The position numbers and the translations under genes were made by a program. This document shows, piece by piece, positions 23,642 to 64,000 of a stretch of 64,000 nucleotides of DNA. The notes under the pieces were generated by a model. That model made no database searches. It saw only the letters and a program-made list of their open reading frames with translations, and was not told where the DNA came from. Within the stretch, counting starts at the first letter, position 1. The number at the start of each line of letters is the position of its first letter. The stretch is taken from assembly GCF_056746865.1 (NCBI RefSeq), contig NZ_CM163382.1. One strand, written 5' to 3'.

Positions 23642-23779
23642 ATATTCCTTGTAAAAACAGGGATAAACCGAACTAGTTAAAGTTTTTATTATGTTCCCTG
23701 CATCAGCGGGGATAAACCGGACTTGTTATCATTTTTTAAGTTGTCGAACTTATGTTCCCCGCGTCAGCGGGGATAACCA
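23642..23779 (+). CRISPR. degenerate CRISPR remnant: three decayed repeats (..cagggataaaccg; atgttccctgcatcagcggggataaaccg; atgttccccgcgtcagcggggataa-cca)
   Basis: partial matches to the 29-bp repeat at ~23642-23670, 23691-23719, 23752-23779; one 32-bp spacer between the last two. Confidence 0.6.
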
Positions 23780-38885: not shown

Positions 38886-39620
38886 ATGTCCAAACTCGAT
38901 CTAAACGCCCTGAACGAACTGCCGAAGGTAGATCGCATTCTGGCGCTGGCAGAAACTAACGCCGAACTGGAAAAACTGGACGCTGAAGGCCGCGTTGCCT
39001 GGGCGCTGGATAATCTGCCCGGTGAATATGTACTTTCTTCCAGTTTCGGCATTCAGGCGGCGGTGAGCCTGCATCTGGTGAATCAGATTCGCCCGGATAT
39101 TCCAGTGATCCTCACCGATACGGGTTACTTGTTCCCGGAAACCTACCGCTTTATTGACGAGTTAACGGACAAACTCAAACTCAACCTGAAAGTGTACCGT
39201 GCTACCGAAAGCGCAGCCTGGCAGGAAGCACGCTACGGTAAACTATGGGAGCAGGGCGTTGAAGGCATTGAAAAGTACAATGACATCAACAAAGTCGAAC
39301 CGATGAACCGGGCGCTGAAAGAACTGAATGCGCAAACGTGGTTTGCTGGCCTGCGCCGCGAACAATCCGGCAGTCGCGCCAATTTACCGGTGCTGGCAAT
39401 TCAGCGTGGCGTATTTAAAGTGCTGCCGATTATCGACTGGGATAACCGAACGATATATCAGTATCTGCAAAAACATGGCCTGAAATATCACCCATTATGG
39501 GATGAAGGATATTTATCGGTCGGTGATACCCATACAACCCGTAAATGGGAACCCGGCATGGCGGAAGAAGAAACGCGTTTCTTTGGCTTAAAAAGAGAAT
39601 GTGGGTTACACGAAGGGTAA
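38886..39620 (+). CDS. cysH: phosphoadenosine phosphosulfate (PAPS) reductase CysH
   Basis: ORF 38733..39620; preferred ATG at 38886 ([15 protein letters not shown]...) giving 244 aa; C-terminal ECGLH motif. Confidence 0.9.
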
Positions 39621-39637
39621 ATATTGCCGGATAAATT

Positions 39638-39677
39638 AAACGCCTCTGTCAGAAATGATGGGGGCGTTTTTATTTTG
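39638..39677 (+). terminator. probable cysH terminator (aaacgcc ... ggcgttt + TTTTATTTT)
   Basis: 7-bp stem with long loop then T-run, 18 bp after cysH stop. Confidence 0.45.
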
Positions 39678-39884
39678 CGAGCAGCATTCCTGATTTTAAA
39701 CGTGAACGCCGCTGGAAGAATTATCAGGTATAGAATGGCGTTGGGTGCTTGAGGCTGTCTGGCGTTAAGCATTCGCGAGGTTCCAGATGGACAAAAGCCC
39801 CAGGCGATATTTCTATCAACCTGAGGCCAGCGTTCGAACCTAAGCAATTCGAATGTTAGTCTCTTCTTTGCAGGGAGGCAAGAC

Positions 39885-40037
39885 ATGCTGACAAAATATG
39901 CCCTTGTGGCAATCATCGTACTGTGTTGTACAGTACTGGGATTCACGCTGATGGTAGGCGACTCGTTGTGTGAGTTGAGTATCAGAGAACGTGGTATGGA
40001 GTTTAAGGCAGTTCTCGCTTACGAATCGAAGAAGTAG
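39885..40037 (+). CDS. Hok/Gef-family type I toxin (HokE-like), 50 aa
   Basis: ATG at 39885 preceded by AGGGAGG Shine-Dalgarno; [50 protein letters not shown] has the single TM helix and the Hok signature ...SLCE...E..AVLAYES.K; not listed in the ORF track because it is under the length cutoff. Confidence 0.75.
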
Positions 40038-40048
40038 CCACCACGCGG

Positions 40049-40058
40049 GGGTAAAACC
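40049..40058. repeat. left target-site duplication of IS186 (GGGTAAAACC)
   Basis: identical 10-bp sequence flanks both IS186 ends; an 11th base is ambiguous. Confidence 0.75.
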
Positions 40059-41397
40059 CATAAGCGCTAACTTAAGGGTTGTGGTATTACGCCTGATATG
40101 ATTTAACGTGCCGATGAATTACTCTCACGATAACTGGTCAGCAATTCTGGCCCATATTGGTAAGCCCGAAGAACTGGATACTTCGGCACGTAATGCCGGG
40201 GCTCTAACCCGCCGCCGCGAAATTCGTGATGCTGCAACTCTGCTACGTCTGGGGCTGGCTTACGGCCCCGGGGGGATGTCATTACGTGAAGTCACTGCAT
40301 GGGCTCAGCTCCATGACGTTGCAACATTATCTGACGTGGCTCTCCTGAAGCGGCTGCGGAATGCCGCCGACTGGTTTGGCATACTTGCCGCACAAACACT
40401 TGCTGTACGCGCCGCAGTTACGGGTTGTACAAGCGGAAAGAGATTGCGTCTTGTCGATGGAACAGCAATCAGTGCGCCCGGGGGCGGCAGCGCTGAATGG
40501 CGACTACATATGGGATATGATCCTCATACCTGTCAGTTCACTGATTTTGAGCTAACCGACAGCAGAGACGCTGAACGGCTGGACCGATTTGCGCAAACGG
40601 CAGACGAGATACGCATTGCTGACCGGGGATTCGGTTCGCGTCCCGAATGTATCCGCTCACTTGCTTTTGGAGAAGCTGATTATATCGTCCGGGTTCACTG
40701 GCGAGGATTGCGCTGGTTAACTGCAGAAGGAATGCGCTTTGACATGATGGGTTTTCTGCGCGGGCTGGATTGCGGTAAGAACGGTGAAACCACTGTAATG
40801 ATAGGCAATTCAGGTAATAAAAAAGCCGGAGCTCCTTTTCCGGCACGTCTCATTGCCGTATCACTTCCTCCCGAAAAAGCATTAATCAGTAAAACCCGAC
40901 TGCTCAGCGAGAATCGTCGAAAAGGACGAGTAGTTCAGGCGGAAACGCTGGAAGCAGCGGGCCATGTGCTATTGCTAACATCATTACCGGAAGATGAATA
41001 TTCAGCAGAGCAAGTGGCTGATTGTTACCGTCTGCGATGGCAAATTGAACTGGCTTTTAAGCGGCTCAAAAGTTTGCTGCACCTGGATGCTTTGCGTGCA
41101 AAGGAACCTGAACTCGCGAAAGCGTGGATATTTGCTAATCTACTCGCCGCATTTTTAATTGACGACATAATCCAGCCATCGCTGGATTTCCCCCCCAGAA
41201 GTGCCGGATCCGAAAAGAAGAACTAACTCGTTGTGGAGAATAACAAAAATGGTCATCTGGAGCTTACAGGTGGCCATTCGTGGGACAGTATCCCTGACAG
41301 CCTACAAAACGCAATTGAAGAACGCGAGGCATCGTCTTAACGAGGCACCGAGGCGTCGCATTCTTCAGATGGTTCAACCCTTAAGTTAGCGCTTATG
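40059..41397 (+). mobile_element. IS186 (IS4 family), ~1.34 kb
   Basis: 23-bp terminal inverted repeats CATAAGCGCTAACTTAAGGGTTG / CAACCCTTAAGTTAGCGCTTATG; transposase matches recalled IS186 InsL; inserted in a G-run/C-run palindrome. Confidence 0.9.
40114..41226 (+). CDS. IS186 transposase
   Basis: ORF 40108..41226 begins at a GTG; preferred ATG at 40114 (MNYSHDNWSAILAHIGKPEEL...). Confidence 0.85.
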   Translation: MNYSHDNWSAILAHIGKPEELDTSARNAGALTRRREIRDAATLLRLGLAYGPGGMSLREVTAWAQLHDVATLSDVALLKRLRNAADWFGILAAQTLAVRAAVTGCTSGKRLRLVDGTAISAPGGGSAEWRLHMGYDPHTCQFTDFELTDSRDAERLDRFAQTADEIRIADRGFGSRPECIRSLAFGEADYIVRVHWRGLRWLTAEGMRFDMMGFLRGLDCGKNGETTVMIGNSGNKKAGAPFPARLIAVSLPPEKALISKTRLLSENRRKGRVVQAETLEAAGHVLLLTSLPEDEYSAEQVADCYRLRWQIELAFKRLKSLLHLDALRAKEPELAKAWIFANLLAAFLIDDIIQPSLDFPPRSAGSEKKN

Positions 41398-41407
41398 GGG
41401 TAAAACC
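41398..41407. repeat. right target-site duplication of IS186 (GGGTAAAACC)
   Basis: read directly after the right inverted repeat. Confidence 0.75.
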
Positions 41408-41580
41408 CCGCGTATTGAATTGTGATGGTTTGGTCTCCTGCACCCTTTTTTAATTTATATTGTTTATGTGAATATTATGCCTATGTTTATTATTCATATA
41501 TATTACTGATGAAAATTATTTGATTATTCATAATGTAAATATTTTATTGGACGATATATATCACAGATAATTTTTAATAT

Positions 41581-44280
41581 ATGCGTAAATATCCTTTAAG
41601 TTTACTGAAGGATAAAAATATTGTGACTTTTTTTGATTTCTGGGGAAAAACCCGACGCGGCGAGAAAGACGGGGGCGACGACTATCACCTTCTTTGCTGG
41701 CATTCGCTGGATGTAGCCGCGATGGGCTATTTAATGGTTAAAAGCAATTGCTTCGGACTGGCTGACTATTTTCGTCAATTAGAGATTTCTGACAAGGAAC
41801 AGGCGGCTCAATTTTTCGCCTGGTTGTTGTGCTGGCACGATACTGGTAAATTTGCCCGCTCATTTCAGCAACTTTACCTGCACCCGAAACTCAGGGTTCC
41901 GGAAGGTGCTAGAAAAAATTACGAAAAAATCTCTCATTCAACGCTGGGCTACTGGTTGTGGCATCATTATTTAAGTGAATGTCAGGAGTTACTTCCTTCC
42001 TCTTCACTCTCTCCCCGCAAACTTACACGTGTAATAGCGATGTGGATGCCCATAACTACCGGGCATCATGGTCGCCCGCCTGACCGTATTGATGAACTGG
42101 ATAATTTTCTGCCTGAAGACAAAGCTGCCGCGCGAGATTTTCTTCTTGAAATCAAACCACTGTTTCCGCTCATAGAGATCCCCGCATTCTGGGATGATGA
42201 TGAGGGCATTGAACTTATAAAACACCTTTCCTGGTATATCTCTGCAACCGTCGTACTCGCAGACTGGACGGGATCGTCAGCGCGGTTTTTTCCACGCGTT
42301 GCACAGGCAATGGATATTAAAGATTACTGGCAGAAGGCTTTAGTTCAGGCTCAAAACGCCTTAACCGTCTTTCCTCCAAAAGCACAAACCGCGCCTTTCA
42401 CCGGAATTAATACGCTGTTTCCTTTTATTGAGAATCCGACACCGTTACAGCAAAAGGTGCTGGATCTGGATATCAGCCAGCCAGGGCCACAGTTATTTAT
42501 TCTGGAAGATGTGACTGGCGCAGGTAAAACGGAAGCGGCGCTTATCCTGGCGCACAGGTTGATGGCTGCGGGTAAAGCGCAGGGTTTGTTTTTTGGCCTG
42601 CCAACAATGGCAACGGCCAATGCCATGTACGATCGACTGGTCAAAACCTGGCTTGCTTTCTATTCGCCAGAGTCCCGCCCCAGCCTGGTGCTGGCACACA
42701 GTGCCCGAACATTAATGGACCGCTTTAATGAATCACTCTGGTCCGGTGATTTAGTCGGGTCAGAAGAACCGGATGAACAAACGTTCAGTCAGGGATGTGC
42801 GGCCTGGTTTGCCGACAGTAACAAGAAGGCGCTACTGGCTGAAATTGGCGTCGGCACGCTGGATCAGGCGATGATGGCTGTGATGCCGTTCAAACATAAT
42901 AATCTGCGGCTTCTGGGACTGAGTAACAAAATCCTGCTGGCTGATGAGATCCATGCCTGTGACGCTTACATGTCATGCATTCTTGAAGGGCTGATCGAGC
43001 GGCAGGCGCGTGGCGGAAACAGCGTCATTTTGCTTTCTGCCACGTTATCTCAACAGCAGTGCGACAAACTCGTTGCTGCCTTTGCGCGTGGTACAGAGGG
43101 CCAGCAAGAAGCTCCGTTCCTGGAAAAGGATGATTACCCCTGGCTGACGCACGTTACGAAATCCGATGTGCATTCACACCGGGTAGCGACGCGCAAAGAC
43201 GTTGAGCGTAGCGTGAGCGTGGGTTGGCTTCATAGCGAACAAGAATGTATTGCGCGTATCGAATCGGCAGTAAGTCAGGGGAAATGCATCGCCTGGATCC
43301 GGAATTCTGTCGATGACGCTATTAAGGTTTATCGTCAGTTGCTTGCCCGCGGCGTCATTCCTGCTTCCAGCCTTTCTCTGTTTCATAGCCGCTTTGCTTT
43401 TAGCGATCGCCAGCGAATTGAAACGGAAACGCTGGCACGCTTCGGTAAAGAAGATAGCTCACAGCGTGCCGGAAAAGTCCTCATTTGTACTCAGGTCTTA
43501 GAGTCGAGCGTTGATTGCGATATGGACGAAATGATTTCCGACCTGGCCCCTGTTGATTTGCTGATCCAGCGAGCGGGGCGATTACAGCGGCATATCCGCG
43601 ATATTAATGGTCAGTTAAAGCGTGACGGAAAAGACGAGCGTTCCCCTCCTGAATTGCTGATTCTGGCCCCCGTCTGGGACGACGCTCCAGGTGACGAATG
43701 GTTCGGCAGTGCCATGCGTAACAGTGCATATGTCTATCCCGATCATGGACGAATCTGGCTGACGCAGCGTGTACTGCGTGAGCAAGGCGCTATTCAAATG
43801 CCACACGCAGCCCGCCTTCTTATTGAATCAGTCTACGGTGAGGACGTGGTAATGCCGGAAGGATTTGCCCGCAGCGAGCAGGAGCAAGTGGGCAAATATT
43901 ACTGCGATCGCGCAATGGCTAAAAAGTTTGTGCTGAACTTCAGGCCTGGCTATGCCGCCAATATCAACGATTACCTTCCGGAAAAGCTGTCGACACGTCT
44001 GGCGGAGGAGTCTGTTTCCCTGTGGCTGGCTACCTGTATTGCCAGTGTGGTGAAGCCTTATGCCAACGGTGCTCACGCATGGGAAATGAGCGTTGTCAGA
44101 GTGCGTCGAAGCTGGTGGAAAAAACATCGGGATGAGTTTTCTTTACTGGAAGGGGAAGCGTTCAGGCAGTGGTGCATTGAACAGCGGAAAGATCCGGAGA
44201 TGGCAAACGTGATTTTAGTTACCGATGACGAAAGTTGCGGGTATTCGGCTATGGAAGGATTGACTGGCAAGGTTGGTTGA
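41581..44280 (+). CDS. cas3: CRISPR-associated nuclease/helicase Cas3 (type I-E)
   Basis: 899-aa ORF; N-terminal HD-type histidines (HSLDVA, WHDTGK, TGHHGRP); helicase Walker A (GAGKTEA) and DExH-like box (LADEIHACD); AT-rich upstream region. Confidence 0.9.
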   Translation: MRKYPLSLLKDKNIVTFFDFWGKTRRGEKDGGDDYHLLCWHSLDVAAMGYLMVKSNCFGLADYFRQLEISDKEQAAQFFAWLLCWHDTGKFARSFQQLYLHPKLRVPEGARKNYEKISHSTLGYWLWHHYLSECQELLPSSSLSPRKLTRVIAMWMPITTGHHGRPPDRIDELDNFLPEDKAAARDFLLEIKPLFPLIEIPAFWDDDEGIELIKHLSWYISATVVLADWTGSSARFFPRVAQAMDIKDYWQKALVQAQNALTVFPPKAQTAPFTGINTLFPFIENPTPLQQKVLDLDISQPGPQLFILEDVTGAGKTEAALILAHRLMAAGKAQGLFFGLPTMATANAMYDRLVKTWLAFYSPESRPSLVLAHSARTLMDRFNESLWSGDLVGSEEPDEQTFSQGCAAWFADSNKKALLAEIGVGTLDQAMMAVMPFKHNNLRLLGLSNKILLADEIHACDAYMSCILEGLIERQARGGNSVILLSATLSQQQCDKLVAAFARGTEGQQEAPFLEKDDYPWLTHVTKSDVHSHRVATRKDVERSVSVGWLHSEQECIARIESAVSQGKCIAWIRNSVDDAIKVYRQLLARGVIPASSLSLFHSRFAFSDRQRIETETLARFGKEDSSQRAGKVLICTQVLESSVDCDMDEMISDLAPVDLLIQRAGRLQRHIRDINGQLKRDGKDERSPPELLILAPVWDDAPGDEWFGSAMRNSAYVYPDHGRIWLTQRVLREQGAIQMPHAARLLIESVYGEDVVMPEGFARSEQEQVGKYYCDRAMAKKFVLNFRPGYAANINDYLPEKLSTRLAEESVSLWLATCIASVVKPYANGAHAWEMSVVRVRRSWWKKHRDEFSLLEGEAFRQWCIEQRKDPEMANVILVTDDESCGYSAMEGLTGKVG

Positions 44281-44377: not shown

Positions 44378-45940
44378 ATGAACTCGTTTTCACTTCTGAC
44401 AACCCCGTGGTTGCCCGTTCGTTATAAAGACGGAACGACAGGCAAACTGGCGCCTGTCGATCTGGCGGATGAAAATGTTGTCGATATTGCTGCGCCACGG
44501 GCAGATCTCCAGGGAGCGGCATGGCAGTTTTTGCTGGGGCTACTACAAACCAGCTTTGCGCCAAAAGATCATCGTCGTTGGGATGATATCTGGGAAGACG
44601 GACTGGAATCTGAAAAGCTACGGGAAGCATTGCTGTCCTTAGAACACGCTTTCCAGTTTGGGCCAGATTCCCCTTCATTTATGCAGGATTTCGAGGCGCT
44701 CACAGGAGATAAAGTTCAGGTCGCTTCGCTACTGCCTGAGATTCCCGGCGCTCAAACAACGAAGTTTAATAAAGACCACTTTATCAAGCGTGGTGTAACG
44801 GAATACCTGTGCCCACATTGTTCTGCGTTAGCTCTGTTCTCCCTACAGTTAAATGCGCCGTCAGGTGGTAAAGGCTACCGCACCGGTTTACGCGGCGGTG
44901 GGCCGATGACCACTCTGATTGAATTACAGGAATATCAGGGCAATCAACAAACGCCCTTGTGGCGCAAACTGTGGCTCAATGTGATGCCGCAGGACGAAGC
45001 CGACTTACCGCTACCCAAAAAATTTGACGATCTGGTTTTCCCCTGGCTTGGCCCGACGCGTACCAGCGAACTGGCCGGTGCGGTGGTAACCGATGATCAG
45101 GTTAATAAACTCCAGGCGTACTGGGGAATGCCGCGGCGTATTCGTATTGATTTTAATACCACGACAGTCGGCAACTGCGATATTTGCGGCGAGCAGAACG
45201 ACGCGCTCCTGAGCCTGATGACGACCAAAAATTACGGCGCGAATTATGCCATGTGGCAGCATCCCTTAACGCCTTACCGTGTACCCCTTAAAGAGGGCGG
45301 CGAGTTTTACTCGGTCAAACCACAACCAGGCGGTTTAATCTGGCGCGACTGGTTAGGCCTTATCGAAACGGGTAAATCAGAAAACAATACGGAACTTCCC
45401 GCGCTGGTGGTGAAACTCTTTAATGCCAGCAGTCTCAAGCAGGCAAAAGTGGGCCTGTGGGGATTTGGTTATGATTTTGACAACATGAAAGCGCGCTGTT
45501 GGTACGAACACCATTTTCCGCTGCTGCTCGATAAAAAAGAAGGCCAGATACCGAAGCTGCGGCTGGCTGCGCAAACGGCTTCACGGATTCTGAGTCTGTT
45601 ACGGAGTGCATTGAAAGAAGCGTGGTTCTCCGATCCAAAAGGTGCACGGGGTGATTTCAGTTTTGTGGATATCGACTTCTGGAACAAAACTCAGCATCGC
45701 TTCCTGAGGTTAGTGCGCCACATTGAAGAAGGTCAGGATGCGGATGAATTACTCAGCAAATGGCAAAAGGAAATTTGGTTATTCGCGCGTCAGGATTTTG
45801 ACGAGCGTGTCTTCACCAATCCATATGAGCCCGTTGATTTGAAACGCGTCATGACCGCGCGCAAGAAATATTTTACAACATCGGCGGAGAAGCAAAATGC
45901 TAAAGCCGCCAGGGAGAAAAAGCAGGAGGCTGCTGAATGA
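44378..45940 (+). CDS. cse1: Cascade large subunit Cse1 (CasA)
   Basis: ORF 44372..45940; ATG at 44378 has better Shine-Dalgarno spacing (GAGAGG); position after cas3 and size ~520 aa; sequence diverges from the K-12 CasA I recall. Confidence 0.8.
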   Translation: MNSFSLLTTPWLPVRYKDGTTGKLAPVDLADENVVDIAAPRADLQGAAWQFLLGLLQTSFAPKDHRRWDDIWEDGLESEKLREALLSLEHAFQFGPDSPSFMQDFEALTGDKVQVASLLPEIPGAQTTKFNKDHFIKRGVTEYLCPHCSALALFSLQLNAPSGGKGYRTGLRGGGPMTTLIELQEYQGNQQTPLWRKLWLNVMPQDEADLPLPKKFDDLVFPWLGPTRTSELAGAVVTDDQVNKLQAYWGMPRRIRIDFNTTTVGNCDICGEQNDALLSLMTTKNYGANYAMWQHPLTPYRVPLKEGGEFYSVKPQPGGLIWRDWLGLIETGKSENNTELPALVVKLFNASSLKQAKVGLWGFGYDFDNMKARCWYEHHFPLLLDKKEGQIPKLRLAAQTASRILSLLRSALKEAWFSDPKGARGDFSFVDIDFWNKTQHRFLRLVRHIEEGQDADELLSKWQKEIWLFARQDFDERVFTNPYEPVDLKRVMTARKKYFTTSAEKQNAKAAREKKQEAAE

Positions 45941-46473
45941 GTATTGTAAAAGAGGAGCACAAAGCCACGCTGCGTAAATGGCACGAAGAGTTGCAGGAAA
46001 AACGCGGCAATCGTGCCAGTCTGCGGCGTAGCACAACGGTTAATGATGTTTGTCTGTCAGAAGGGTTTCGTTCTCTGCTGATGCAGACCCACACTTTGTG
46101 GAAAATTGAAGCACAAGAGTGGCGTTTTACCGCACTGGCGCTGGTCGCCGCAGTTAGCGCCAATGTTAAAGCTATTGATGAACGGCAGCCTTTTGCCGCG
46201 CAGCTGGCGGCGGTAATGTCGGAGGGGCGTTTTACTCGCCTGTCGGCAGTAAAAACGCCTGATGATTTACTGCGTCAGTTACGTCGCGCGGTCAAATTAT
46301 TAAATGGTTCCGTCAATCTTATCTCTTTGGCAGAAGATATTTTCCGCTGGTGCCAGGAGAGCGACGACCTGCTCAATCATCACCGCCGCCAGCAGCGGCC
46401 AACAGAATTTATCCGTATCCGCTGGGCGCTGGAATATTACCAGGCTGGCGACGCCGATAACGAACAAAATTAA
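45937..46473 (+). CDS. cse2: Cascade small subunit Cse2 (CasB)
   Basis: 178-aa ORF, start overlaps cse1 stop (ATGA), AGGAGG Shine-Dalgarno; operon position. Confidence 0.8.
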   Translation: MSIVKEEHKATLRKWHEELQEKRGNRASLRRSTTVNDVCLSEGFRSLLMQTHTLWKIEAQEWRFTALALVAAVSANVKAIDERQPFAAQLAAVMSEGRFTRLSAVKTPDDLLRQLRRAVKLLNGSVNLISLAEDIFRWCQESDDLLNHHRRQQRPTEFIRIRWALEYYQAGDADNEQN

Positions 46474-46487
46474 TAAAGGACTATCTC

Positions 46488-47543
46488 ATGACGACATTTA
46501 TTCAGCTTCATTTGTTAACCGCTTACCCTGCTGCCAACCTTAACCGTGATGACACCGGTGCGCCAAAAACTGTGGTACTGGGTGGAGCAACGCGTCTGCG
46601 CGTTTCCTCACAAAGTCTGAAACGTGCGTGGCGCACTTCTGCACTTTTTGAACAGGCACTGGCGGGCCATATTGGTATTCGCAGTGGGCGTATTGCGCGT
46701 GAGGCGGCAACTATCCTGATTGAGAAAGGCATCGAAGAGAAAAAAGCCATCGAATGGGCGGCAAAAATTGCGGATTATCTTGGGAAAGCTAAAAACGACA
46801 AAAAACCAAAAGATCCGCTCACTAACGCCGAAACTGAACAGCTAGTCCATATCAGCCCGGCAGAATTTGACGCCGTAAAAGCGCTGGCCCATCAACTGGC
46901 CGAAGAAAAGCGCGCGCCAAAAGAGGAAGATCTCGCTTTGTTACGTAAAGATCGCATGGCGGTAGATATCGCTATGTTTGGTCGTATGCTGGCGAATAAA
47001 CCCGAATTTAATGTTGAAGCCGCCTGCCAGGTCGCGCATGCATTTGGTGTCAGTGAAACGATTGTCGAAGATGATTTTTTCACCGCCGTTGATGATTTGC
47101 GCCAGGCTTCTGAAGATGCCGGTGCCGGGCATCTTGGTGAAACCGGATTCGGTTCTGCGCTGTTCTACACCTATATCTGCATCGATAAAGATCTGCTGGT
47201 CGAAAACCTCGGCGGTGACGAAGCGTTAGCTAATCAGACCTTGCGCGCCTTTACGGAAGCCGCACTTAAAGTCTCCCCAACCGGCAAACAGAACAGCTTT
47301 GCCAGCCGTGCCTACGCCTCCTGGGCGCTGGCAGAAAAAGGCACTGAACAACCACGCTCTCTGGCGGCGGCTTTCTATGAACCCATTAATGGCACCCGGC
47401 AGTTAGATGTGGCGGTGCAGCGTATTACAACGCTTCGCGAAAATATGAATACGGTCTATGAACAGAAGACCGAATGCGCAAGCTTTGACGTGATGAACAA
47501 ACAGGGAAGCATGAAGGACGTGCTGGACTTTATCTGCGCGTAA
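46488..47543 (+). CDS. cas7e: Cascade backbone Cas7e (CasC/Cse4)
   Basis: 351-aa ORF; N-terminus ...LNRDDTGAPK...GGATRLRVSSQSLKRAWR parallels K-12 CasC (...LNRDDLGKPK...GGVERGRVSSQCWKRAIR). Confidence 0.9.
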   Translation: MTTFIQLHLLTAYPAANLNRDDTGAPKTVVLGGATRLRVSSQSLKRAWRTSALFEQALAGHIGIRSGRIAREAATILIEKGIEEKKAIEWAAKIADYLGKAKNDKKPKDPLTNAETEQLVHISPAEFDAVKALAHQLAEEKRAPKEEDLALLRKDRMAVDIAMFGRMLANKPEFNVEAACQVAHAFGVSETIVEDDFFTAVDDLRQASEDAGAGHLGETGFGSALFYTYICIDKDLLVENLGGDEALANQTLRAFTEAALKVSPTGKQNSFASRAYASWALAEKGTEQPRSLAAAFYEPINGTRQLDVAVQRITTLRENMNTVYEQKTECASFDVMNKQGSMKDVLDFICA

Positions 47544-47553
47544 GGGGCGGCTA

Positions 47554-47630
47554 ATGAGCCAATATTTGATTTTTCAGCTTCATGGGCCAATGGCATCCTG
47601 GGGCGTCGATGCCCCGGCGAAGGGAACAAT
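47554..47630 (+). pseudogene. cas5e: cas5e (casD) 5' fragment: only about 24 N-terminal codons retained; breakpoint approximate
   Basis: MSQYLIFQLHGPMASWGVDAPAKG parallels the Cas5e N-terminus (MRSYLILRLAGPMQAWG...); the frame then runs into unrelated low-complexity sequence and stops at 107 aa; no cas6e/cas1/cas2 follow. Confidence 0.7.
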
Positions 47631-48113
47631 ACAACATCACACAAGGCCAGTAATAGCGCGAATCCTGCGAGTTCTAAAATCAATTCTATACACATTTCTA
47701 TACACATTTATCCCTCGCTTGAGGGTTATGCGTCATCGTTATCGGCTATCTCGCTGGTGGATGATCACGGATGGCCTGATATCTACAGCCGCCTTAAAAA
47801 GCTGTACCCGACAAGCATTACTGCGTATCGGGTTCGTTCGCTCTTTCTACTCGTGGCAGATGAGTTTATCGGTGTGATTTTATCGGGCGAGGGTATTGTA
47901 TCAGGCATCCCCTTTTCTATGCAGATTTGCATAGTTCCGAATGGTGGCGTTATGGAAGCCTCCCATATCAGCATCATGCCCACCAGCGTGAAGTATTTTT
48001 TTATTTCGCGGGTGTAAAAATTTGACGAGGCGGGCGGTCCCATAAGCAATGGATTGTAGGGATTTCGCTCCCCCCCTCCTGAATGCAATTTTTCGTATAT
48101 ATATACAAAACAG

Positions 48114-48270
48114 TGCGGGTTATGCGGGTTACCGGGTTATCTTAGTATGCTAACTATTTTTTGTTCTTTAGTATCAATATGTTGCAAAATACACTGTTCA
48201 TTATTCAAGCATCACATAACCCGCAAAACATCCCAAATAACCCGCAAACGCCCCAAAATAACCCGCAAAC
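48114..48270. repeat. iteron cluster A: GCGGGTTA(T/C) direct copies (48114-48140) and three inverted copies phased at 21 bp (48216, 48237, 48258), next to an AT-rich TATATATATA tract
   Basis: read directly: cagtgcgggttatgcgggttaccgggttat ... cataacccgcaaaacatcccaaataacccgcaaacgccccaaaataacccgcaaac. Confidence 0.65.
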
Positions 48271-48878
48271 ACATTGCTGAAAGCAGGGGTTGATAGTTCC
48301 ACTGGTGCCACAGAACGGCTGAATACGGTAACTGTTGCTGGTGGTCTGTCCTGTTGTCGTTCCAGTCTCATCAAATTGAGAGGCAAGACAAAGTGCATTT
48401 TTGCACTATAGCCAAAGCCTCATAAAACAGAGTTACCCCCACAGGCTGGCAAACCATTACCCAACGCAATTAAGTGCGTCAGAATCGATTACAGCGCGTT
48501 CCTGTGGCACGTTGTTGCCGTTCTCAGCAGTGAAAGGAGAGAGTGAAAAGCGCATATCTATTACTGTTGAGGGGTGTAGCGGCATATATCGCGAATATCC
48601 ACGCCCTTAATCCCGATACCGTCACGGCGCATTGAGATCCACCAGAAGATTAAGATAGTTTTTACCTGAAATTATCCAAATAATTGTTTTAACTGATTAA
48701 TTTTTCGAATATCTATTGTTAGGGAATAAATCATCAGATACACCATAAAACGACATCTTTCAGGGTGTAGAAGATGCAAAGCCGGTACTGAAGAAAAGAC
48801 AAAGAATATGAATGGCTGGCCACACGATGGAAGGATTGTCCATTGAAGGATAAATCCCCGTGGTACAAGTTTTGGTAA

Positions 48879-48899
48879 GCCCGCAGCGCGGGCTTTTTT
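48879..48899 (+). terminator. rho-independent terminator on + strand (gcccgc-agc-gcgggc + TTTTTT)
   Basis: read directly; no convincing ORF upstream of it. Confidence 0.65.
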
Positions 48900-48971
48900 G
48901 TGGACGAAACAAAAGTCAGTGCTACATTCATTGACGCCACATCGAGGTGGCTTATAGATGGAAATTTCACA

Positions 48972-49133
48972 ATGAAAAAAGCATTTGCTGCACTGTTCGT
49001 TTTGTTGTCTCTGGTAGCTTCAACTCAGGCCTTTGCCGGTCGTTGTCAGCACGACAGCGATACTGCCGCTGACGGCTCCCGCTGCGGTGGGCGTTCTGCG
49101 GATTCCCGCCCGGGCGGCGGTGGCATTCGTTAA
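48972..49133 (+). CDS. small secreted peptide (53 aa precursor): signal peptide then ~30-aa Cys-containing, Gly-rich mature region
   Basis: ATG at 48972 inside ORF 48900..49133; MKKAFAALFVLLSLVASTQAFA | GRCQHDSDTAADGSRCGGRSADSRPGGGGIR; followed by a hairpin terminator. Confidence 0.45.
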   Translation: MKKAFAALFVLLSLVASTQAFAGRCQHDSDTAADGSRCGGRSADSRPGGGGIR

Positions 49134-49136
49134 AAA

Positions 49137-49156
49137 CAAGGCCGCGAAAGCGGCCT
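49137..49156. terminator. bidirectional hairpin terminator (aggccgc-gaaa-gcggcct) between convergent small-peptide gene and cargo operon
   Basis: perfect 7-bp stem; T-tracts on both strands. Confidence 0.7.
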
Positions 49157-49162
49157 GTTTGA

Positions 49163-50014
49163 TCACTGTGCAGTTTTCGCTGATCGATTTTCAGCTCTAA
49201 ATTCAAGAACCGTTTCAATATTTCTTTCCTTCAGCATATCAATAACATTTTTATTCATTTGACTATCACTGGTTAATAACTGGTAAACGTTGCTTCTCTC
49301 TTTATCAGAATTTTCTTTAACAGCTGCTTTGCATGCCAAATGCTTATTGAAATTTTCTACATCGCTAGTACAGGAATTTACGGCTGCTGATGAAATATCA
49401 GACGCTGAAGAAACACCATCATCCAAACGTTTTATAGCATTTTCTATACATGAGTTAAGGGAATAAACGACAACTGAGCGATACCCTTCAGACGCACACC
49501 ATTCTAAATTTCTTGAAGGATCGAGTGGTTTTACTTCGCTGGATTGAATTAACTTGTCAAAAACTGACTTATATTCAATCTGTTTTTTATCTATAGCCCA
49601 TACTTCAGTAGCTGATTTATAATTCCCCGTATGCCTATTAACATCAAATCCATGTTTTATAAGCAAATCTGCCCATGAAAGATTTATTGATTCATTGTTA
49701 TGAGGCCATTTTCCTGTCAGAACCGCCCCCATAGACCCCATATATCCGCCATATGATGGTATAGCACCATGGCTCAGTAACTTCTCAGCAACCACAGGGC
49801 AATTAATTACATAAGAGGCGTAAAGCCCATTCCATAAAGCCCCTCTATAGTAATCGCCACGATTAGGTTCTTTTAAGTCGATAGCCTTTGATAATTGTTC
49901 ACACGTTTTGCATGCATCAAAGTTATCCTTATTGCATTGCAATGAACTGGCGGCTGTAGGATTTACAGAGACTATTGAAAGCACTATGCCAAAAAACAAA
50001 TTTATTTTTTTCAT
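49163..50014 (-). CDS. secreted Cys-rich protein of unknown function (283 aa), last gene of cargo operon
   Basis: N-terminal signal peptide (MKKINLFFGIVLSIVSVNPTAA); 8 Cys; strongly AT-rich codon usage; ATG one base after upstream stop (TAGGATG). Confidence 0.7.
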   Translation of the reverse strand: MKKINLFFGIVLSIVSVNPTAASSLQCNKDNFDACKTCEQLSKAIDLKEPNRGDYYRGALWNGLYASYVINCPVVAEKLLSHGAIPSYGGYMGSMGAVLTGKWPHNNESINLSWADLLIKHGFDVNRHTGNYKSATEVWAIDKKQIEYKSVFDKLIQSSEVKPLDPSRNLEWCASEGYRSVVVYSLNSCIENAIKRLDDGVSSASDISSAAVNSCTSDVENFNKHLACKAAVKENSDKERSNVYQLLTSDSQMNKNVIDMLKERNIETVLEFRAENRSAKTAQ

Positions 50015-50015
50015 C

Positions 50016-53000
50016 CTATTTCATCTGCTCTTCAACTTTATTTAGTAATGGTGATATCGCCCACAGATTCTGAAAAGGTAGCATTTTACGGACAGCGTGG
50101 GTTTGCTGGCTGTCAAATTCTCCGTTAAGTACACCATTTGCAACCGTCGCGGCATCACCGCCAAGATCAAAGGTAGGACCAAGTAAAGCACCAATAGCAT
50201 TACGACTCTGAAACCTTGATACCGGAGGCGCACCAAACATCGCGCCAAGACCAAACCTACCGCCGCTTATGTTCTCAACGGTATTCAGCGGCTCAGAGAG
50301 CCAGCCAAGCATTCCGCCCCGGTCGATCCCCTCTTTCACAAGGTTATTCCAGCTGTAGTCGATATCGCGACCGCTTAACTTCTGTTTCATCATATAGACC
50401 ATTGAGCCAAGCGCAATCGTGCCAAGCGCACCAAGATAGAATGAAGCATCGCCCTGCTGGATACCAGATACCAACACCCTGTTATGCTGTGCGAAGATAA
50501 ACGTTTTGAACTGCGTGATCATCTTCCAGCCTTCTTTACTAAAAAACAGCGGTGTATCACCTACGCCAGGCGTTACAATCACTGAGTCTACATCTTTCAG
50601 CACTGCAGACTGGAAAATCTCTCTAGCGAAACGGTCATCCCACAGATGACTATGCCCGGTTAACAGCCCGTCCATATCCTCTCCGTGCTTCCCGAATTGC
50701 TCCCCGATTCGGCGCAGAACATCTTCATTGATGCCGACCTGTGCCATCTTCCGCATTTCACTTTTGGCGAGCGTGCCACCAGCAGAAACCTGGCGAGCCG
50801 CGTCAAGTATCCTCGACTGCACTATCATCCCGGACCATGATTTAAGTGCGCTGTTCCACTGATTCATCAGCGTCCAGTTACCGAATTTCTGCGTCATCCA
50901 GTTCAGGCCTCGCTCAGCGGCGCTTCTCCGGCTATAGGGGTCAGTAAGATCCGCTATAGCCTTTGTACGCGTAGACAGGACATAATCAAGCCCAACGGCC
51001 ATTTCTCGCAAATCCCTGGTTGCAATTTTCACTGAGTCCATATTTTTAAGCATGCTTACCATTGGTCCGAGAGATTTTCTCAGGCCATGCTGCATCATCG
51101 GTCGCATCAGATCAGTTGCAGCGGAGACGGTCATTCCACCAAGCAAACGGAGGAAGTTAATATTCCTAGCAACTCGCCCGGCACGAACAAAGAAACTGCG
51201 TGGATCTTGAGGTGCGCCGTAAGTACCAAGCAGTCGGTCACGCATAGCCGTAATATCCCTAATATCAGCCTCCCGTTGCTTCTCAAGAGCTGCACGTCGT
51301 TTAGGTGTTTTAGCCTCTTTTATTAGCCGGGTATATTCCTCACTAACCTGACGGATTTGCTCCCCCATATCTTTACGGCCAAACTGCGCAGTCAGCTCAA
51401 TTTCTGGTGCCACCTGCCGGAGATAACTTTCCATGATGTAGTTAACATCTGATTCAAGAAAATCTTCTATACGCTCATCAGGAATAAGCAGCGTTCGGCT
51501 TTTAGTGAAACCAGCCCGACCAACGAGTCTCTCTGGGATAATATCGGCTGGTACAAGCCCGGAAGGTGCGCCTATTATTTTATTCACGATCTCGTCAGCA
51601 GCGTCCTCTGCTTCCTCTCGGGATAGAGGCTCCATCTGCTTCAGTGCTCGCTCGCGGCTTGCATTCAGCCTTGTGGTTGAATTTGCCCGTTTTTGCAGTC
51701 GGCGAAGCTCAGAACGATATTTCCGTGGATTATCCAGCAACTCCATATGGCGCTGATAGACAGGAAGCTCACTCTTTGCCTGCGCTATATCATCAAGGCG
51801 TGTTTTAAGGTCAGAGCTTTCTTTCATCATTCTTGCCTGAAGTTTTTCTGATGAAGTCTCGGCCAACTCTTTTTCTATTCTTGTAAGACGCGCCTGTGTG
51901 TCAGTCTCCTGAGATATAAGCTTATTTCGTTTATCCAGTTCTTCCATGAGTAGAATTTTTTTACCAGACCATTTCTCCGCTTCAGCGATTTCACTAGCGA
52001 GAGCATCAGCGCGCGGTGCCGATTCCTCTGCAGTTTTTAGCAATGAATTTATCCTTTCAATTCGCTGACCTGCTTTGTCAGCACCTTTGGCACTAATCCC
52101 TTGTATCCAGTTGGCAATTCGCCCTCTGAATTCAGTGCGGTCGGAAAGTATCTTATCGAACTTATAAATGCGGGGAAGATAACTTTTCGCCGTCACGACA
52201 TCGATATCCTCAGGAAGGATCCCCAGTTCCTGCATACGGGCTTTTGTGGTCTCGAAAATGGGGCGGATTCTGGCGGCTGCTTGTGAAACCTCAGGAATAT
52301 CACTCTGATCACCACGGCGCATAGCCATGCCAACAGCTTCATTGAAATCAATAAAGCTCATCCTCTTCACGCCGCGGGCGCTGACAGATTTGCTGTACTG
52401 CTGGTAAGCATCACGAGTGGCTTCCATCTGCTTATAAAGCATGGCGTCGTATTGCTTAATCTTAGTCTCGACTGCCGTAAACGTAGCCAACCCCTCATCA
52501 TTTTTGGCGAAGAAATAGTTATTTTCGGCAAGCTGCTGGTTAATCTGACGGGAGACAAGAGATGGTGATTGCGCCAAGCGGCCAGCAGGAGTGACACTCA
52601 ACGTTTTGTTAGCAAGTCCAAGTCCAGCGAGCTGTTCCTGATCGAGTGTGGTATTGAAAACCTGAGCTGCACCAATGCTTTGAGGAGAATCCATACCTCG
52701 CAAATGATTACCTACTGAGTTAACCACTGCCTCGCGCGCGCTAGGTCCAGCAAGTAGCTGTGCACCAGCACCAAGGATCCCACCAACGAGAGCATCAACA
52801 ACAACGTTCGATACGCTCTCCATCGGTGAGCGAGCTTCCTGAGTGGCCTGCAATGCGGCCTCTGAAGCAACACTGCCAGCAGCATTGGCTAAAGCAAAAC
52901 GTCCGGCTGTTTCTGCAATACGACCGCCACGAACGACAGCGCCGAACGGAATAAACATAGAAATCGCATTGAATGGATCTGCTAATCTCATTGCTACAGA

Positions 53001-53405
53001 AGAGACTGTACCAGCAAATCCCAAGCCTGAATTGTATTCCATGTCAGCTCTCTGCTGATCGATTCGATGTTTAATTGCCATTGTTTCTTCAGGCGAACCG
53101 GAGTTGATAAACGAATCTGCAAAATCTTCATAGCCTTTAATATCTGCTGCATCGTTATCAAATGGGTTATATCCTTCAATCCTGTCAAACTGACTGAAAG
53201 GAGCACTGGCAATAAAGCTACCCAGCGTGTTATCTATACGAAATGCTGCTTGTCTAGACCTTTGAACGCGTTGATCACTGGTAAATGGGTTCACAGCAGA
53301 AAGCAAAGAAGGTGTTTCCATATAGAAATTACTGTCATCAGGTGCTGCTATTTGCTGAATATCCTCGCCAAGCAACTCTTTAGGATCCTGTTCATATATC
53401 GGCAT
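50016..53405 (-). CDS. large protein of unknown function (1129 aa), predicted alpha-helical with Gly-rich hydrophobic C-terminal region
   Basis: long uninterrupted ORF; start overlaps upstream stop (TAATG); Q/A/E/R-rich; C-terminal hydrophobic/glycine-rich segments (GALGTIALGSMVYMM, GGRFGLGAMFGAPP); no NTPase motifs seen. Confidence 0.8.
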   Translation of the reverse strand: MPIYEQDPKELLGEDIQQIAAPDDSNFYMETPSLLSAVNPFTSDQRVQRSRQAAFRIDNTLGSFIASAPFSQFDRIEGYNPFDNDAADIKGYEDFADSFINSGSPEETMAIKHRIDQQRADMEYNSGLGFAGTVSSVAMRLADPFNAISMFIPFGAVVRGGRIAETAGRFALANAAGSVASEAALQATQEARSPMESVSNVVVDALVGGILGAGAQLLAGPSAREAVVNSVGNHLRGMDSPQSIGAAQVFNTTLDQEQLAGLGLANKTLSVTPAGRLAQSPSLVSRQINQQLAENNYFFAKNDEGLATFTAVETKIKQYDAMLYKQMEATRDAYQQYSKSVSARGVKRMSFIDFNEAVGMAMRRGDQSDIPEVSQAAARIRPIFETTKARMQELGILPEDIDVVTAKSYLPRIYKFDKILSDRTEFRGRIANWIQGISAKGADKAGQRIERINSLLKTAEESAPRADALASEIAEAEKWSGKKILLMEELDKRNKLISQETDTQARLTRIEKELAETSSEKLQARMMKESSDLKTRLDDIAQAKSELPVYQRHMELLDNPRKYRSELRRLQKRANSTTRLNASRERALKQMEPLSREEAEDAADEIVNKIIGAPSGLVPADIIPERLVGRAGFTKSRTLLIPDERIEDFLESDVNYIMESYLRQVAPEIELTAQFGRKDMGEQIRQVSEEYTRLIKEAKTPKRRAALEKQREADIRDITAMRDRLLGTYGAPQDPRSFFVRAGRVARNINFLRLLGGMTVSAATDLMRPMMQHGLRKSLGPMVSMLKNMDSVKIATRDLREMAVGLDYVLSTRTKAIADLTDPYSRRSAAERGLNWMTQKFGNWTLMNQWNSALKSWSGMIVQSRILDAARQVSAGGTLAKSEMRKMAQVGINEDVLRRIGEQFGKHGEDMDGLLTGHSHLWDDRFAREIFQSAVLKDVDSVIVTPGVGDTPLFFSKEGWKMITQFKTFIFAQHNRVLVSGIQQGDASFYLGALGTIALGSMVYMMKQKLSGRDIDYSWNNLVKEGIDRGGMLGWLSEPLNTVENISGGRFGLGAMFGAPPVSRFQSRNAIGALLGPTFDLGGDAATVANGVLNGEFDSQQTHAVRKMLPFQNLWAISPLLNKVEEQMK

Positions 53406-56152: not shown

Positions 56153-56248
56153 CAGTAACCTCCTATTTTGAATCGGGAGTCAGAATTCATAAAACCTGAG
56201 TTAGATAACATTGGCGTCCCTCTGCTTTGATGCTGTACCAGCGATTCA

Positions 56249-56455
56249 TTACTCACCCCCCGATGCAAAACCATTCTGATTAAGCCAGGCGTTTACGGCA
56301 TGTCTGACAATCTGCGCCACGCCTGGTAATGGCTGATCAGGGTGATTGTTCACATGGTCGATTCTGTACTGCTTAAGGCGCATCACGGTCTGTGCATCCA
56401 GATGAACGGAACCACCTCTGACATCGCCTGTGTTCAGGTCGTTAATACAATTCAC
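56249..56455 (-). CDS. small protein of unknown function (68 aa), first gene of cargo operon, GTG start
   Basis: GTG start preceded by AAGAGGAAA Shine-Dalgarno at optimal spacing; AT-rich putative promoter region upstream (56456-56554). Confidence 0.55.
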   Translation of the reverse strand: MNCINDLNTGDVRGGSVHLDAQTVMRLKQYRIDHVNNHPDQPLPGVAQIVRHAVNAWLNQNGFASGGE

Positions 56456-56554
56456 AGCAATTTCCTCTTACTGACTAAACTATGCACATTATTGATCTGA
56501 AAAAGTGGTAGATAAACATATTTCTATCACAAAAACAGATTAATTGATTTCAGC

Positions 56555-56580
56555 CAAAAAAAAGCCGGATTGCTCCGGCT
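56555..56580 (-). terminator. rho-independent terminator on minus strand (agccgga-ttgc-tccggct with A-run on + strand)
   Basis: read directly; separates the IS200/IS605 element from the cargo-operon promoter. Confidence 0.6.
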
Positions 56581-56785
56581 CTGTGCTTACTTCTGGTAGT
56601 TACGCCATACTGATTTCCCGATCCCATCTATCCCCATTTCTTTTTCAGTGCGTTTAAGCGACCGTTTCAGGTCTTCTAAATTATCCGGTTGCTTCGGTGG
56701 CCTCTGTGCCTTCCTGGAACATTCCAGTCGTCGCATTGATATTTGACATCCTCCACGCCCTGAAGGACGTGGATTCCTGCTACGT

Positions 56786-57994: not shown

Positions 57995-58016
57995 ATGCCA
58001 AATTATACTTTGGCCT

Positions 58017-58433: not shown

Positions 58434-58516
58434 GTGGAAAACCGCGCCTTATATCCCCGACCTGAAGGACGGGGCTTTACGGCGCACTGGGTAATTACTC
58501 TGTTCGCTGTTGTGAA

Positions 58517-58942: not shown

Positions 58943-59001
58943 GCTGTTTGTTCTCCGGTTTTAACGTGATAGTTACGCTTGTTTACACTCTTACAGTGAA
59001 A

Positions 59002-59129
59002 TTTTGCGGGTTACAATCGCACATTTGCGGGTTATAACTGCCGTTTTGCGGGTTACGTGCGGGTTATTAATTTCCTTTTTAATCATTCAGTTAATTAACT
59101 TATGCACAGGATAACCCGCATAACCCGCA
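59002..59129. repeat. iteron cluster B: four direct copies of TTTGCGGGTTA(C/T) plus two inverted copies (ATAACCCGCA), immediately 3' of the primase-helicase gene
   Basis: read directly: ttttgcgggttac ... tttgcgggttat ... tttgcgggttac gtgcgggttat ... ataacccgcataacccgca. Confidence 0.7.
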
Positions 59130-59152
59130 ACTTTTTACCTCACACAGGGAAG

Positions 59153-61578: not shown

Positions 61579-61580
61579 GT

Positions 61581-63950: not shown

Positions 63951-64000
63951 TCCGACACTTAACAGATAGTCTTTACCGGGTCTGCCAGAGTGCTTAATCT

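What the first reader, a model, noticed from the sequence alone, without database searches (positions are those of the whole stretch)
40059..41580. IS186 sits about 180 bp upstream of cas3 in the AT-rich promoter region
The IS186 transposase gene is co-oriented with cas3 and only 183 bp of AT-rich DNA separate the IS end from the cas3 start codon. Read-through or an outward promoter could change cas3 expression, or the insertion could separate cas3 from upstream silencing or regulatory DNA.
Basis: inference. Interest (0 to 1): 0.35.

Follow-up and report, generated by a model that had tools for sequence, protein, structure and literature searches.

The report
IS186 in the hokX hairpin beside cas3
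The IS186 copy is real, but it sits in a known IS186 hot spot, a GC-rich hairpin in the tail of the hokX toxin mRNA, so its closeness to cas3 is most likely incidental and the arrangement is already described in E. coli.

Summary
A complete IS186 lies at 40059/60-41396/97. It has perfect 23-bp ends, a 12-bp duplication (GGGGTAAAACCC), and a transposase identical to K-12 InsL1. It is co-oriented with cas3, whose ATG (41581) is 183 bp from the IS end.

The IS is not in the AT-rich DNA. It sits 22 nt after the hokX stop codon, in the loop of a GC-rich hairpin. That hairpin is the only GGGG-N3-6-CCCC site in the 64-kb window. K-12 IS186A and IS186B occupy the same homologous position downstream of hokC and hokE.

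The insertion separates hokX from the 3' element predicted to pair with its mRNA 5' end (41432-41445). It leaves the whole 129-bp, 16% GC tract attached to cas3.

Of 5,426 complete E. coli genomes, 768 carry IS186 at this hokX site: 171 in this orientation and 597 inverted. In 259 of the inverted cases cas3 is no longer adjacent; in the two examined, one of them E. coli B, the cas operon is deleted. Almendros et al. 2014 published this arrangement.

An effect on cas3 transcription cannot be tested here, and nothing supports it. In this window the cas operon is also broken inside cas5.

Verdict: already known, low interest.

The parts
39743..39900 (+). 5' leader of the hokX mRNA (Rfam 'sok' family RF01794). 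Its first bases, GGGUGCUUGAGGCU, are the end that pairs with the distant 3' element.
   Evidence: 111.7 bits against a gathering score of 59, E = 5.5e-26, full model 1-157; 39743-39756 pair with 41432-41445 in the minimum-energy fold of the IS-free reconstruction.
39787..39843 (-). sokX antisense RNA region, identified by homology to the annotated K-12 sokX.
   Evidence: 56 of 57 bases identical to K-12 sokX (b4701, annotated).
39885..40037 (+). hokX, an intact 50-codon Hok/Gef toxin ORF.
   Evidence: PF01848, 39.1 bits against a cut-off of 22; the same protein (WP_000956458.1) is annotated in genomes with and without the IS.
40043..40059 (+). 5' half and loop of the hokX 3' hairpin (ACGCGGGG-GTAAAA-CCC...), including the left copy of the target-site duplication (40048-40059).
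   Evidence: In the IS-free allele the hairpin reads ACGCGGGGGTAAAACCCCGCGT (strain 118UI, 100% identical to the reconstruction).
40059..41397 (+). IS186 (IS4 family; RefSeq label 'IS421 family'). Left repeat 40059-40081, transposase 40114-41226, right repeat 41375-41397.
   Evidence: annotated as an IS4-like IS421-family transposase in identical genomes.
41397..41413 (+). Right copy of the duplication (41397-41408) and the 3' half of the hairpin (CCCCGCGT, 41406-41413).
   Evidence: this is the only GGGG-N3-6-CCCC site in the 64-kb window.
41432..41451 (+). Predicted fbi (fold-back) element of the hokX mRNA (41432-41445) and its U-run (41446-41451), now cut off from hokX by the IS.
   Evidence: 5'-3' end pairing in the reconstruction; the same architecture in reconstructed hokC and hokE, with one compensatory pair.
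41452..41580 (+). AT-rich tract (16% GC) directly upstream of cas3; the presumed cas3 promoter and 5' UTR, untouched by the IS.
   Evidence: composition; only weak promoter-like matches (8 of 12), all starting at or downstream of 41431; 100% identical in the IS-free allele.
41581..44280 (+). cas3, intact at 899 aa, of the non-K-12 (cas-E1) variant.
   Evidence: domains; the same protein (WP_001233965.1) is annotated with and without the IS.
44378..47622 (+). cse1, cse2 and cas7, followed by a cas5 gene cut after about 22 codons at ~47616-47622. The rest of the operon is absent from the window.
   Evidence: No 25-mer from the rest of cas5, cas6e, cas1, cas2 or iap occurs in the window.

Best explanation
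This is a target-site-driven insertion of IS186 into its preferred GC-rich palindromic target. Here that target is the stem-loop 22 nt after the hokX stop codon, in the 3' region of the hokX/sokX type I toxin-antitoxin transcript.

The insertion separates the hokX coding part from its 3' fold-back (fbi) element and U-run. In the hok/sok model that element pairs with the mRNA 5' end to keep the toxin mRNA stable and untranslated. The likely result is the same as proposed for K-12 hokC::IS186A and hokE::IS186B: the hok locus is uncoupled from its normal RNA regulation.

cas3 happens to be the next gene and keeps its entire AT-rich upstream tract. The IS also supplies portable homology next to cas3, which in many strains has been one endpoint of a deletion of the whole cas operon.

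Shown here: the identity of the IS, the exact site, positional homology with hokC and hokE, recurrence in both orientations, and the deletion derivatives. Inferred: loss of hokX regulation, and little or no selected effect on cas3.
For: - Site: junction alignments show IS186 exactly 22 nt after the stop codon, in the hairpin loop, for hokX (window), hokE and hokC (K-12). The duplication is 12 bp at all three sites.
- Target: the targets read G5-N5-C4 (hokX) and G4-N6-C4 (hokC, hokE). This motif occurs once in the 64-kb window.
- RNA: Rfam 'sok' marks the hokX mRNA 5' end at 39743. In the IS-free reconstruction, 39743-39756 pair with 41432-41445, just before a U-run. With the IS present, the 5' end folds locally instead. 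Reconstructed hokC and hokE show the same end pairing, with U7-A in hokC and C7-G in hokE.
- Population: the left junction occurs in 171 genomes co-oriented and 597 inverted, out of 5,426. Both junctions with cas3 retained occur in 171 and 338. All eight junction sets examined, including the two deletion derivatives, have the same left junction.
- Same haplotype in three states: empty (118UI, 100% identical), co-oriented (WP8-S18-ESBL-07) and inverted (AF206).
- Deletion derivatives: in Z217-2 and E. coli B REL606 the order is hokX, IS186, CRISPR spacer, iap. The two flanks do not match (GGGGTAAAACCC against GGGGTTTTTCCCC).
- A different IS at the same place: IS1 sits 8 bp further along in the same hairpin in JMK_KBN3987.
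- Literature: IS186 downstream of gef/hokC is thought to disrupt fbi (PMC3562002). K-12 hok loci, and hokX of E. coli B, are described as inactivated by insertion elements (PMC7232551). IS186 at the boundary between hok/sok and cas-E1 is proposed to drive cas loss (PMC3903273).
Against: - No transcript or phenotype data: inactivation of hokX rests on analogy with R1 hok/sok and with hokC.
- The hokX ORF is still intact, and gef/hokC with IS186 is reported as still transcribed and regulated.
- The fold is a minimum-energy prediction with assumed 5' and 3' ends.
- Genome counts are not counts of independent events. Clonal expansion and sampling bias towards clinical isolates inflate them.
- Only two independent insertions are strictly proven, by orientation.
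- No predicted terminator lies between the transposase gene and cas3, so a side effect on cas3 transcription is not excluded.
Confidence: 0.8

Rival explanations
1. One reading: the co-oriented IS186 changes cas3 expression. It could do so by read-through from the transposase gene, by an outward promoter, or by insulating cas3 from upstream transcription or silencing. That effect would be the functionally relevant consequence.
For: - The transposase and cas3 are on the same strand, 354 bp apart from transposase stop to cas3 ATG.
- No terminator-like site is predicted between 41127 and cas3.
- With the IS present, the hokX 3' pairing that precedes the U-run can no longer form.
- In the IS-free allele hokX and cas3 are co-directional and only 194 bp apart. 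Any hokX read-through into cas3 would therefore be interrupted by the IS (inference).
Against: - No consensus-like promoter at the IS right end or spanning the junction. The only candidates (8 of 12 matches) lie in the retained tract.
- The AT-rich tract is intact and identical to the IS-free allele.
- There is no AT-rich DNA upstream of the site to be separated from cas3.
- The inverted orientation is twice as frequent among cas3-retaining genomes.
- IS186 at the lon promoter arises in either orientation, and such insertions are reported to disrupt the promoter and lower expression.
- No paper on an IS186 outward promoter was found.
- In this window the operon is broken in cas5, so cas3 level cannot affect interference unless Cascade genes are supplied from elsewhere.
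Confidence: 0.12
2. A neutral hot-spot insertion. IS186 lands here only because of its sequence preference, and neither hokX nor cas3 is affected in any way that matters to the cell.
For: - It is the only consensus target in 64 kb.
- The junction is identical in every genome checked.
- Both orientations occur.
- The Hok and Cas3 proteins are unchanged between alleles with and without the IS.
Against: - Three different IS types are found just downstream of hok ORFs. IS186 and IS1 were seen here. IS150 downstream of hokA is recalled from Pedersen & Gerdes 1999 and was not checked here.
- IS1 does not share the IS186 target preference, which hints at selection for breaking hok 3' regions.
- The insertion demonstrably removes the predicted fbi partner.
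Confidence: 0.25
3. The IS186 matters mainly as a step towards loss of the I-E system. It supplies homology for recombination with a second IS186 in the CRISPR array, which deletes cas3 through cas2.
For: - 259 of 597 inverted-orientation carriers have lost the adjacent cas3.
- REL606 and Z217-2 show hokX, IS186, CRISPR spacer, iap, with non-matching flanks.
- Almendros et al. 2014 proposed this model.
Against: - No second IS186 is present in this window.
- None of the 171 co-oriented carriers has lost cas3.
- In this window the operon was broken by a different event, in cas5.
- This describes a consequence in some lineages, not a function of the insertion.
Confidence: 0.3

Closest known systems
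hokC(gef)::IS186A and hokE::IS186B of E. coli K-12 (Pedersen & Gerdes 1999, cited in PMC7232551; PMC3562002)
   Same: - The same IS (1338 of 1339 bases identical; identical transposase).
- The same position, 22 nt after the hok stop codon in the loop of a GGGG-N5-6-CCCC hairpin.
- A 12-bp duplication.
- The fbi element is left on the far side of the IS.
- hokE has the same orientation as this window.
   Different: - A different hok paralogue (hokX, between cysH and cas3).
- The downstream neighbour here is cas3.
- K-12 itself has lost hokX beyond its start codon and carries the other cas variant.
hokX::IS186 of E. coli B (REL606)
   Same: An identical left junction between hokX and IS186. The locus is described in the literature as hokX inactivated by an insertion element.
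   Different: - In E. coli B the IS is inverted.
- Its other side abuts a CRISPR spacer, so the whole cas operon is deleted.
- An IS150 lies upstream of hokX.
- The window keeps cas3 through cas7.
CRISPR-I locus arrangements with IS186 at the IG2-IG3 boundary (Almendros et al. 2014, mBio, PMC3903273)
   Same: cas-E1 strains with IS186 inserted between the hok/sok system and cas3 at a GC-rich site. The paper proposes this as a hot spot and a route to cas deletion.
   Different: - That paper does not link the site to the hok mRNA hairpin and fbi, or to the hokC and hokE precedent.
- It does not discuss cas3 expression.
- The window adds a separate break in cas5.
[quoted passage not shown] 2001, cited in PMC3045373 and PMC11251521)
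   Same: A single-site hot spot with a G-run/C-run target and recurrent spontaneous insertion in either orientation.
   Different: At lon the IS splits the promoter itself and lowers expression. Here it lies 183 bp upstream of the ATG and outside the AT-rich tract.

Membership tests
IS186 (IS4 family insertion sequence) | DDE transposase of the IS4 type, near-identical to InsL | tested here: met
   PF01609, E = 1.6e-26. 371 of 371 residues identical to K-12 InsL1.
IS186 (IS4 family insertion sequence) | About 1.34 kb with perfect 23-bp terminal inverted repeats | tested here: met
   Repeats at 40059-40081 and 41375-41397 with no mismatches. 1338 of 1339 bases identical to IS186A.
IS186 (IS4 family insertion sequence) | GC-rich target of the form G>=4 N3-6 C>=4 with a duplication of about 10-13 bp. 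The consensus is recalled from SaiSree et al. 2001, which could not be read here. | tested here: met
   The target is GGGGGTAAAACCCC and the duplication is 10-12 bp. It is the only such motif in the window. hokC, hokE and the REL606 spacer flank have the same form.
[quoted passage not shown] | Hok/Gef family toxin ORF of about 50 codons | tested here: met
   PF01848, 39.1 bits against a cut-off of 22.
[quoted passage not shown] | Structured 5' leader with an antisense Sok RNA | tested here: met
   RF01794, 111.7 bits against 59. 56 of 57 bases identical to K-12 sokX.
[quoted passage not shown] | 5' and 3' mRNA end pairing (tac/fbi) on one contiguous transcript | tested here: not met
   The pairing is predicted only after the IS is removed in silico. 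In the window, 1.34 kb of IS186 separates the fbi from hokX.
[quoted passage not shown] | Toxicity of Hok and post-segregational or Sok-dependent control | not testable with these tools
   Needs expression and RNA-stability experiments.
IS-mediated activation of a neighbouring gene (outward or hybrid promoter) | A promoter or -35 element at the IS end facing the gene | tested here: not met
   No consensus-like site in 41150-41430 on the + strand. No supporting paper was found. Consensus scans are weak evidence.
IS-mediated activation of a neighbouring gene (outward or hybrid promoter) | Orientation bias among natural alleles towards the activating orientation | tested here: not met
   171 co-oriented against 338 inverted genomes that keep cas3. 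These are genomes, not independent events.
IS-mediated activation of a neighbouring gene (outward or hybrid promoter) | A changed level or 5' end of the neighbouring gene's transcript | not testable with these tools
   Needs RNA-seq, 5'-RACE or reporter fusions.
Type I-E CRISPR-Cas (cas-E1 variant) | cas3 with HD nuclease and helicase domains | tested here: met
   PF18019, PF22590 and PF00270; 899 aa, intact.
Type I-E CRISPR-Cas (cas-E1 variant) | A complete Cascade gene set (cse1, cse2, cas7, cas5, cas6e) with cas1, cas2 and an adjacent array | tested here: not met
   cas5 is cut at ~47616-47622. No cas6e, cas1, cas2 or iap sequence occurs in the window. The only array in the window is the separate locus at 21276-21851.

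The most novel reading that the evidence does not exclude
In the co-oriented allele, transposase read-through crosses the now unpaired hokX 3' end and raises cas3 transcription above its silenced level. In this strain Cas3 would then be made without a working Cascade. That could have effects outside immunity, for example on plasmid replication or genome stability. Orientation of IS186 at the hokX hairpin would then act as a natural two-state switch for cas3.
Probability: 0.08. Interest if true: 0.4.

Novelty: already known. Interest (0 to 1): 0.15.

Why it matters
The finding has little importance as a discovery. IS186 between hok/sok and cas3 of the non-K-12 I-E variant, IS186 22 nt downstream of hok genes, and IS186-bounded loss of the cas operon are all in the literature.

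The work here adds precision:
- The site is the hokX mRNA hairpin, not the cas3 promoter.
- 768 of 5,426 complete genomes carry the insertion, in both orientations.
- All 259 carriers that lost the adjacent cas3 have the inverted orientation.
- One haplotype exists in nature in three states (empty, co-oriented, inverted), which gives a ready-made test of whether the IS affects cas3 or hokX expression.

Tried and rejected
- Consensus promoter and terminator scan of 39600-41700, plus a more lenient scan of my own of 41150-41585. Nothing at the IS end; only weak matches in the AT-rich tract. These scans cannot locate the real cas3 promoter.
- Literature search for an IS186 outward promoter. The hits used 'outward' in unrelated senses.
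- SaiSree et al. 2001 (PMC95536) is not held. The target consensus is therefore recalled from memory and checked only against the four targets seen here.
- Pedersen & Gerdes 1999 could not be read. Its content is taken from citing papers.
- The 2026 Hok survey preprint does not mention hokX, cas3 or IS186.
- First attempt to count left junctions with a query of 300 bp hok plus 300 bp IS. It was confounded by paralogous hok::IS186 junctions, so it was repeated with a 500-bp unique flank.
- TSD-length variation as a marker of independent events: rejected, because all seven full junction sets checked were identical.
- K-12 data on the cas3 promoter were considered but not transferred. K-12 carries the other cas variant, and its sequence diverges from the window just after the hokX start codon.

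Full report
**Observation.** The window is E. coli chromosome. The gene order is cysJ, cysI, cysH, a 50-codon Hok/Gef ORF (39885-40037), an insertion sequence, then cas3, cse1, cse2, cas7.

The insertion sequence has perfect 23-bp inverted repeats at 40059-40081 and 41375-41397. These are the only two matches in the window. It is flanked by the direct repeat GGGGTAAAACCC at 40048-40059 and 41397-41408. It matches K-12 IS186A at 1338 of 1339 bases and encodes a transposase identical to InsL1, with a DDE_Tnp_1 domain.

The transposase (40114-41226) and cas3 (41581-44280) are both on the + strand. The IS end lies 183 bp from the cas3 ATG.

**Where the IS really sits.** The AT-rich DNA is confined to 41452-41580 (16% GC) and the first bases of cas3. 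The 55 bp just right of the IS is 47% GC, the 22 bp between the hok stop and the IS is 68% GC, and everything upstream is 44-53% GC.

Removing the IS and one repeat copy restores the hairpin ACGCGGGG-GTAAAA-CCCCGCGT, which starts 5 nt after the hok stop codon. This reconstructed sequence is 100% identical over 952 bp to strain 118UI. That strain also carries the same CysH, Hok, Cas3 and Cascade protein alleles. The insertion point is in the hairpin loop, 22 nt after the stop codon.

**The hairpin belongs to the hokX transcript.** Rfam's sok/hok leader family matches 39743-39900 at 111.7 bits against a gathering score of 59, starting at GGGUGCUUGAG. K-12 sokX maps antisense to 39787-39843.

I folded the IS-free transcript from 39743 to the U-run. 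In that fold the 5' end (39743-39756) pairs with 41432-41445, immediately before UUUUUU. This is the mRNA end pairing (tac/fbi) known from R1 hok. With the IS in place, the 5' end forms a local hairpin instead.

The 183-bp 'spacer' is therefore made up of four parts: the right half of the hairpin, a short linker, the hokX fbi with its U-run, and 129 bp of AT-rich DNA.

**The same event at two other hok loci.** In K-12, IS186A lies next to hokC and IS186B next to hokE. The junctions align base for base with the window: stop codon, 22 nt, then ATAAGCGC.

The targets are GGGG-AGTGAT-CCCC and GGGG-AGTAAT-CCCC, each with a 12-bp duplication. Reconstructed hokC and hokE transcripts show the same 5'-3' pairing downstream of the IS site. 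One pair is compensatory: U-A in hokC and C-G in hokE.

GGGG-N3-6-CCCC occurs exactly once in the 64-kb window, at this hairpin. Published statements agree with this picture:
- IS186 downstream of gef/hokC is thought to disrupt the fbi (PMC3562002).
- K-12 hok loci and E. coli B hokX are described as inactivated by insertion elements (PMC7232551).

**Population picture.** The counts below are out of 5,426 complete E. coli genomes.

| Arrangement | Genomes |
|---|---|
| hokX-IS186 left junction, window's orientation | 171 |
| Both flanks with cas3 retained, window's orientation | 171 |
| hokX-IS186 left junction, inverted | 597 |
| Both flanks with cas3 retained, inverted | 338 |
| IS-free arrangement (at least 80% of the reconstruction) | 2,238 |

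So 259 inverted carriers have lost the adjacent cas3. The left junction was identical in all eight sequences inspected, and both junctions in the seven that keep cas3.

The window's own haplotype exists in three states:
- Empty: 118UI.
- Co-oriented: WP8-S18-ESBL-07 and five other genomes at 100% identity.
- Inverted: AF206 at 100% identity.

The site is therefore hit repeatedly. This matches reports that IS186 enters the lon promoter at one site in either orientation (PMC3045373).

In Z217-2 and E. coli B REL606 the order is hokX, IS186, CRISPR spacer, iap. The two flanks do not match, which is the signature of an IS-bounded deletion of the cas operon.

Almendros et al. 2014 already described this. 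[quoted passage not shown] In JMK_KBN3987 an IS1 sits 8 bp further along in the same hairpin.

**The cas3 question.** Sequence tools cannot measure expression.

Points against a meaningful regulatory role:
- The AT-rich tract is intact and unchanged.
- No AT-rich DNA lies upstream to be cut off.
- No promoter-like site lies at the IS end. The weak candidates all start at or downstream of 41431.
- There is no orientation bias towards co-orientation.
- IS186 at the lon promoter arises in either orientation, and such insertions are reported to disrupt the promoter and reduce expression.
- No paper reporting an IS186 outward promoter was found.

Points that keep the idea open:
- No terminator is predicted between the transposase gene and cas3.
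- The IS removes the hokX 5' partner of the helix that precedes the U-run.
- The IS must interrupt any hokX read-through that exists in the IS-free allele.

I rate a real, biologically relevant effect at about 0.1.

**Context in this particular window.** The window matches WP8-S18-ESBL-07 up to ~47616, inside cas5. From there to position 64000 it is unrelated mobile DNA. None of the rest of cas5, cas6e, cas1, cas2 or iap is in the window. No complete genome in the collection has this junction. Cascade therefore cannot be encoded by this operon as seen, which further lowers the immune relevance of cas3 regulation in this strain. In the intact relatives of this haplotype, cas1e already carries an internal stop.

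**Verdict.** The feature is a known hot-spot insertion of IS186 in the hokX 3' hairpin, and its nearness to cas3 is a by-product of gene order. It is already known and of low interest.

Noticed in passing
window 47554-64000: cas5 is cut after about 22 codons at ~47616-47622 and joined to mobile DNA that runs to the window end. That DNA carries 21-bp iteron-like repeats at 48216-48272 and, as reverse complements, at 59003-59056. It also has ORFs of 283, 1129 (DUF919) and 915 aa, a TnpB (56786-57994), an SSB, a DUF927 protein (59153-61279) and a Bro-N protein. None of 5,426 complete genomes has this junction.
   Followed up: partly
window 47616-47626; L015 ~8990-9020: In strain CS5L the same element end lies next to yqeG. 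It is preceded by TGGAGCGGGCGAAGGGAA, which I recall as the reverse complement of the tRNA-Gly (glyU) 3' end, that is, a partial att site. The window keeps only GGCGAAGGGAA, and native cas5 has CGGCGAAG at that point. This suggests either integration at a secondary site or an att-by-pseudo-att inversion through 7-8 bp of shared sequence.
   Followed up: partly
L012 (Z217-2) and L014 (REL606): All 259 genomes that carry IS186 at hokX but have lost the adjacent cas3 have the IS in the inverted orientation. None of the 171 co-oriented carriers has lost it. REL606 also has an IS150 between cysH and hokX. Whether the pattern reflects clonal descent or a mechanistic constraint is unknown.
   Followed up: partly
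L013 (JMK_KBN3987) 764-1531: An IS1 with a 9-bp duplication (AACCCCGCG) is inserted in the 3' half of the same hokX hairpin, 8 bp from the IS186 site. It also separates hokX from its fbi.
   Followed up: yes
E. coli complete genomes: A junction query of 300 bp hokX plus 300 bp IS186 reached at least 80% coverage in 1,722 genomes co-oriented and 835 inverted, against 171 and 597 with a hokX-specific flank. About 1,550 and 240 genomes therefore appear to carry IS186 at the same position downstream of a hok paralogue (hokE-like and hokC-like junctions). This is an estimate and was not checked individually.
   Followed up: no
L005 29330-30253; L016 16981-17904: In the intact relatives of this cas haplotype, cas1e is annotated as a pseudogene with an internal stop, in genomes both with and without the IS186.
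   Followed up: no
window 21276-21851 and 23693-23719: A separate I-E CRISPR array of ten repeats (nine perfect, one with a single mismatch) at 61-bp spacing, near ygcE and queE. A lone degenerate repeat lies about 1.8 kb further on.
   Followed up: no
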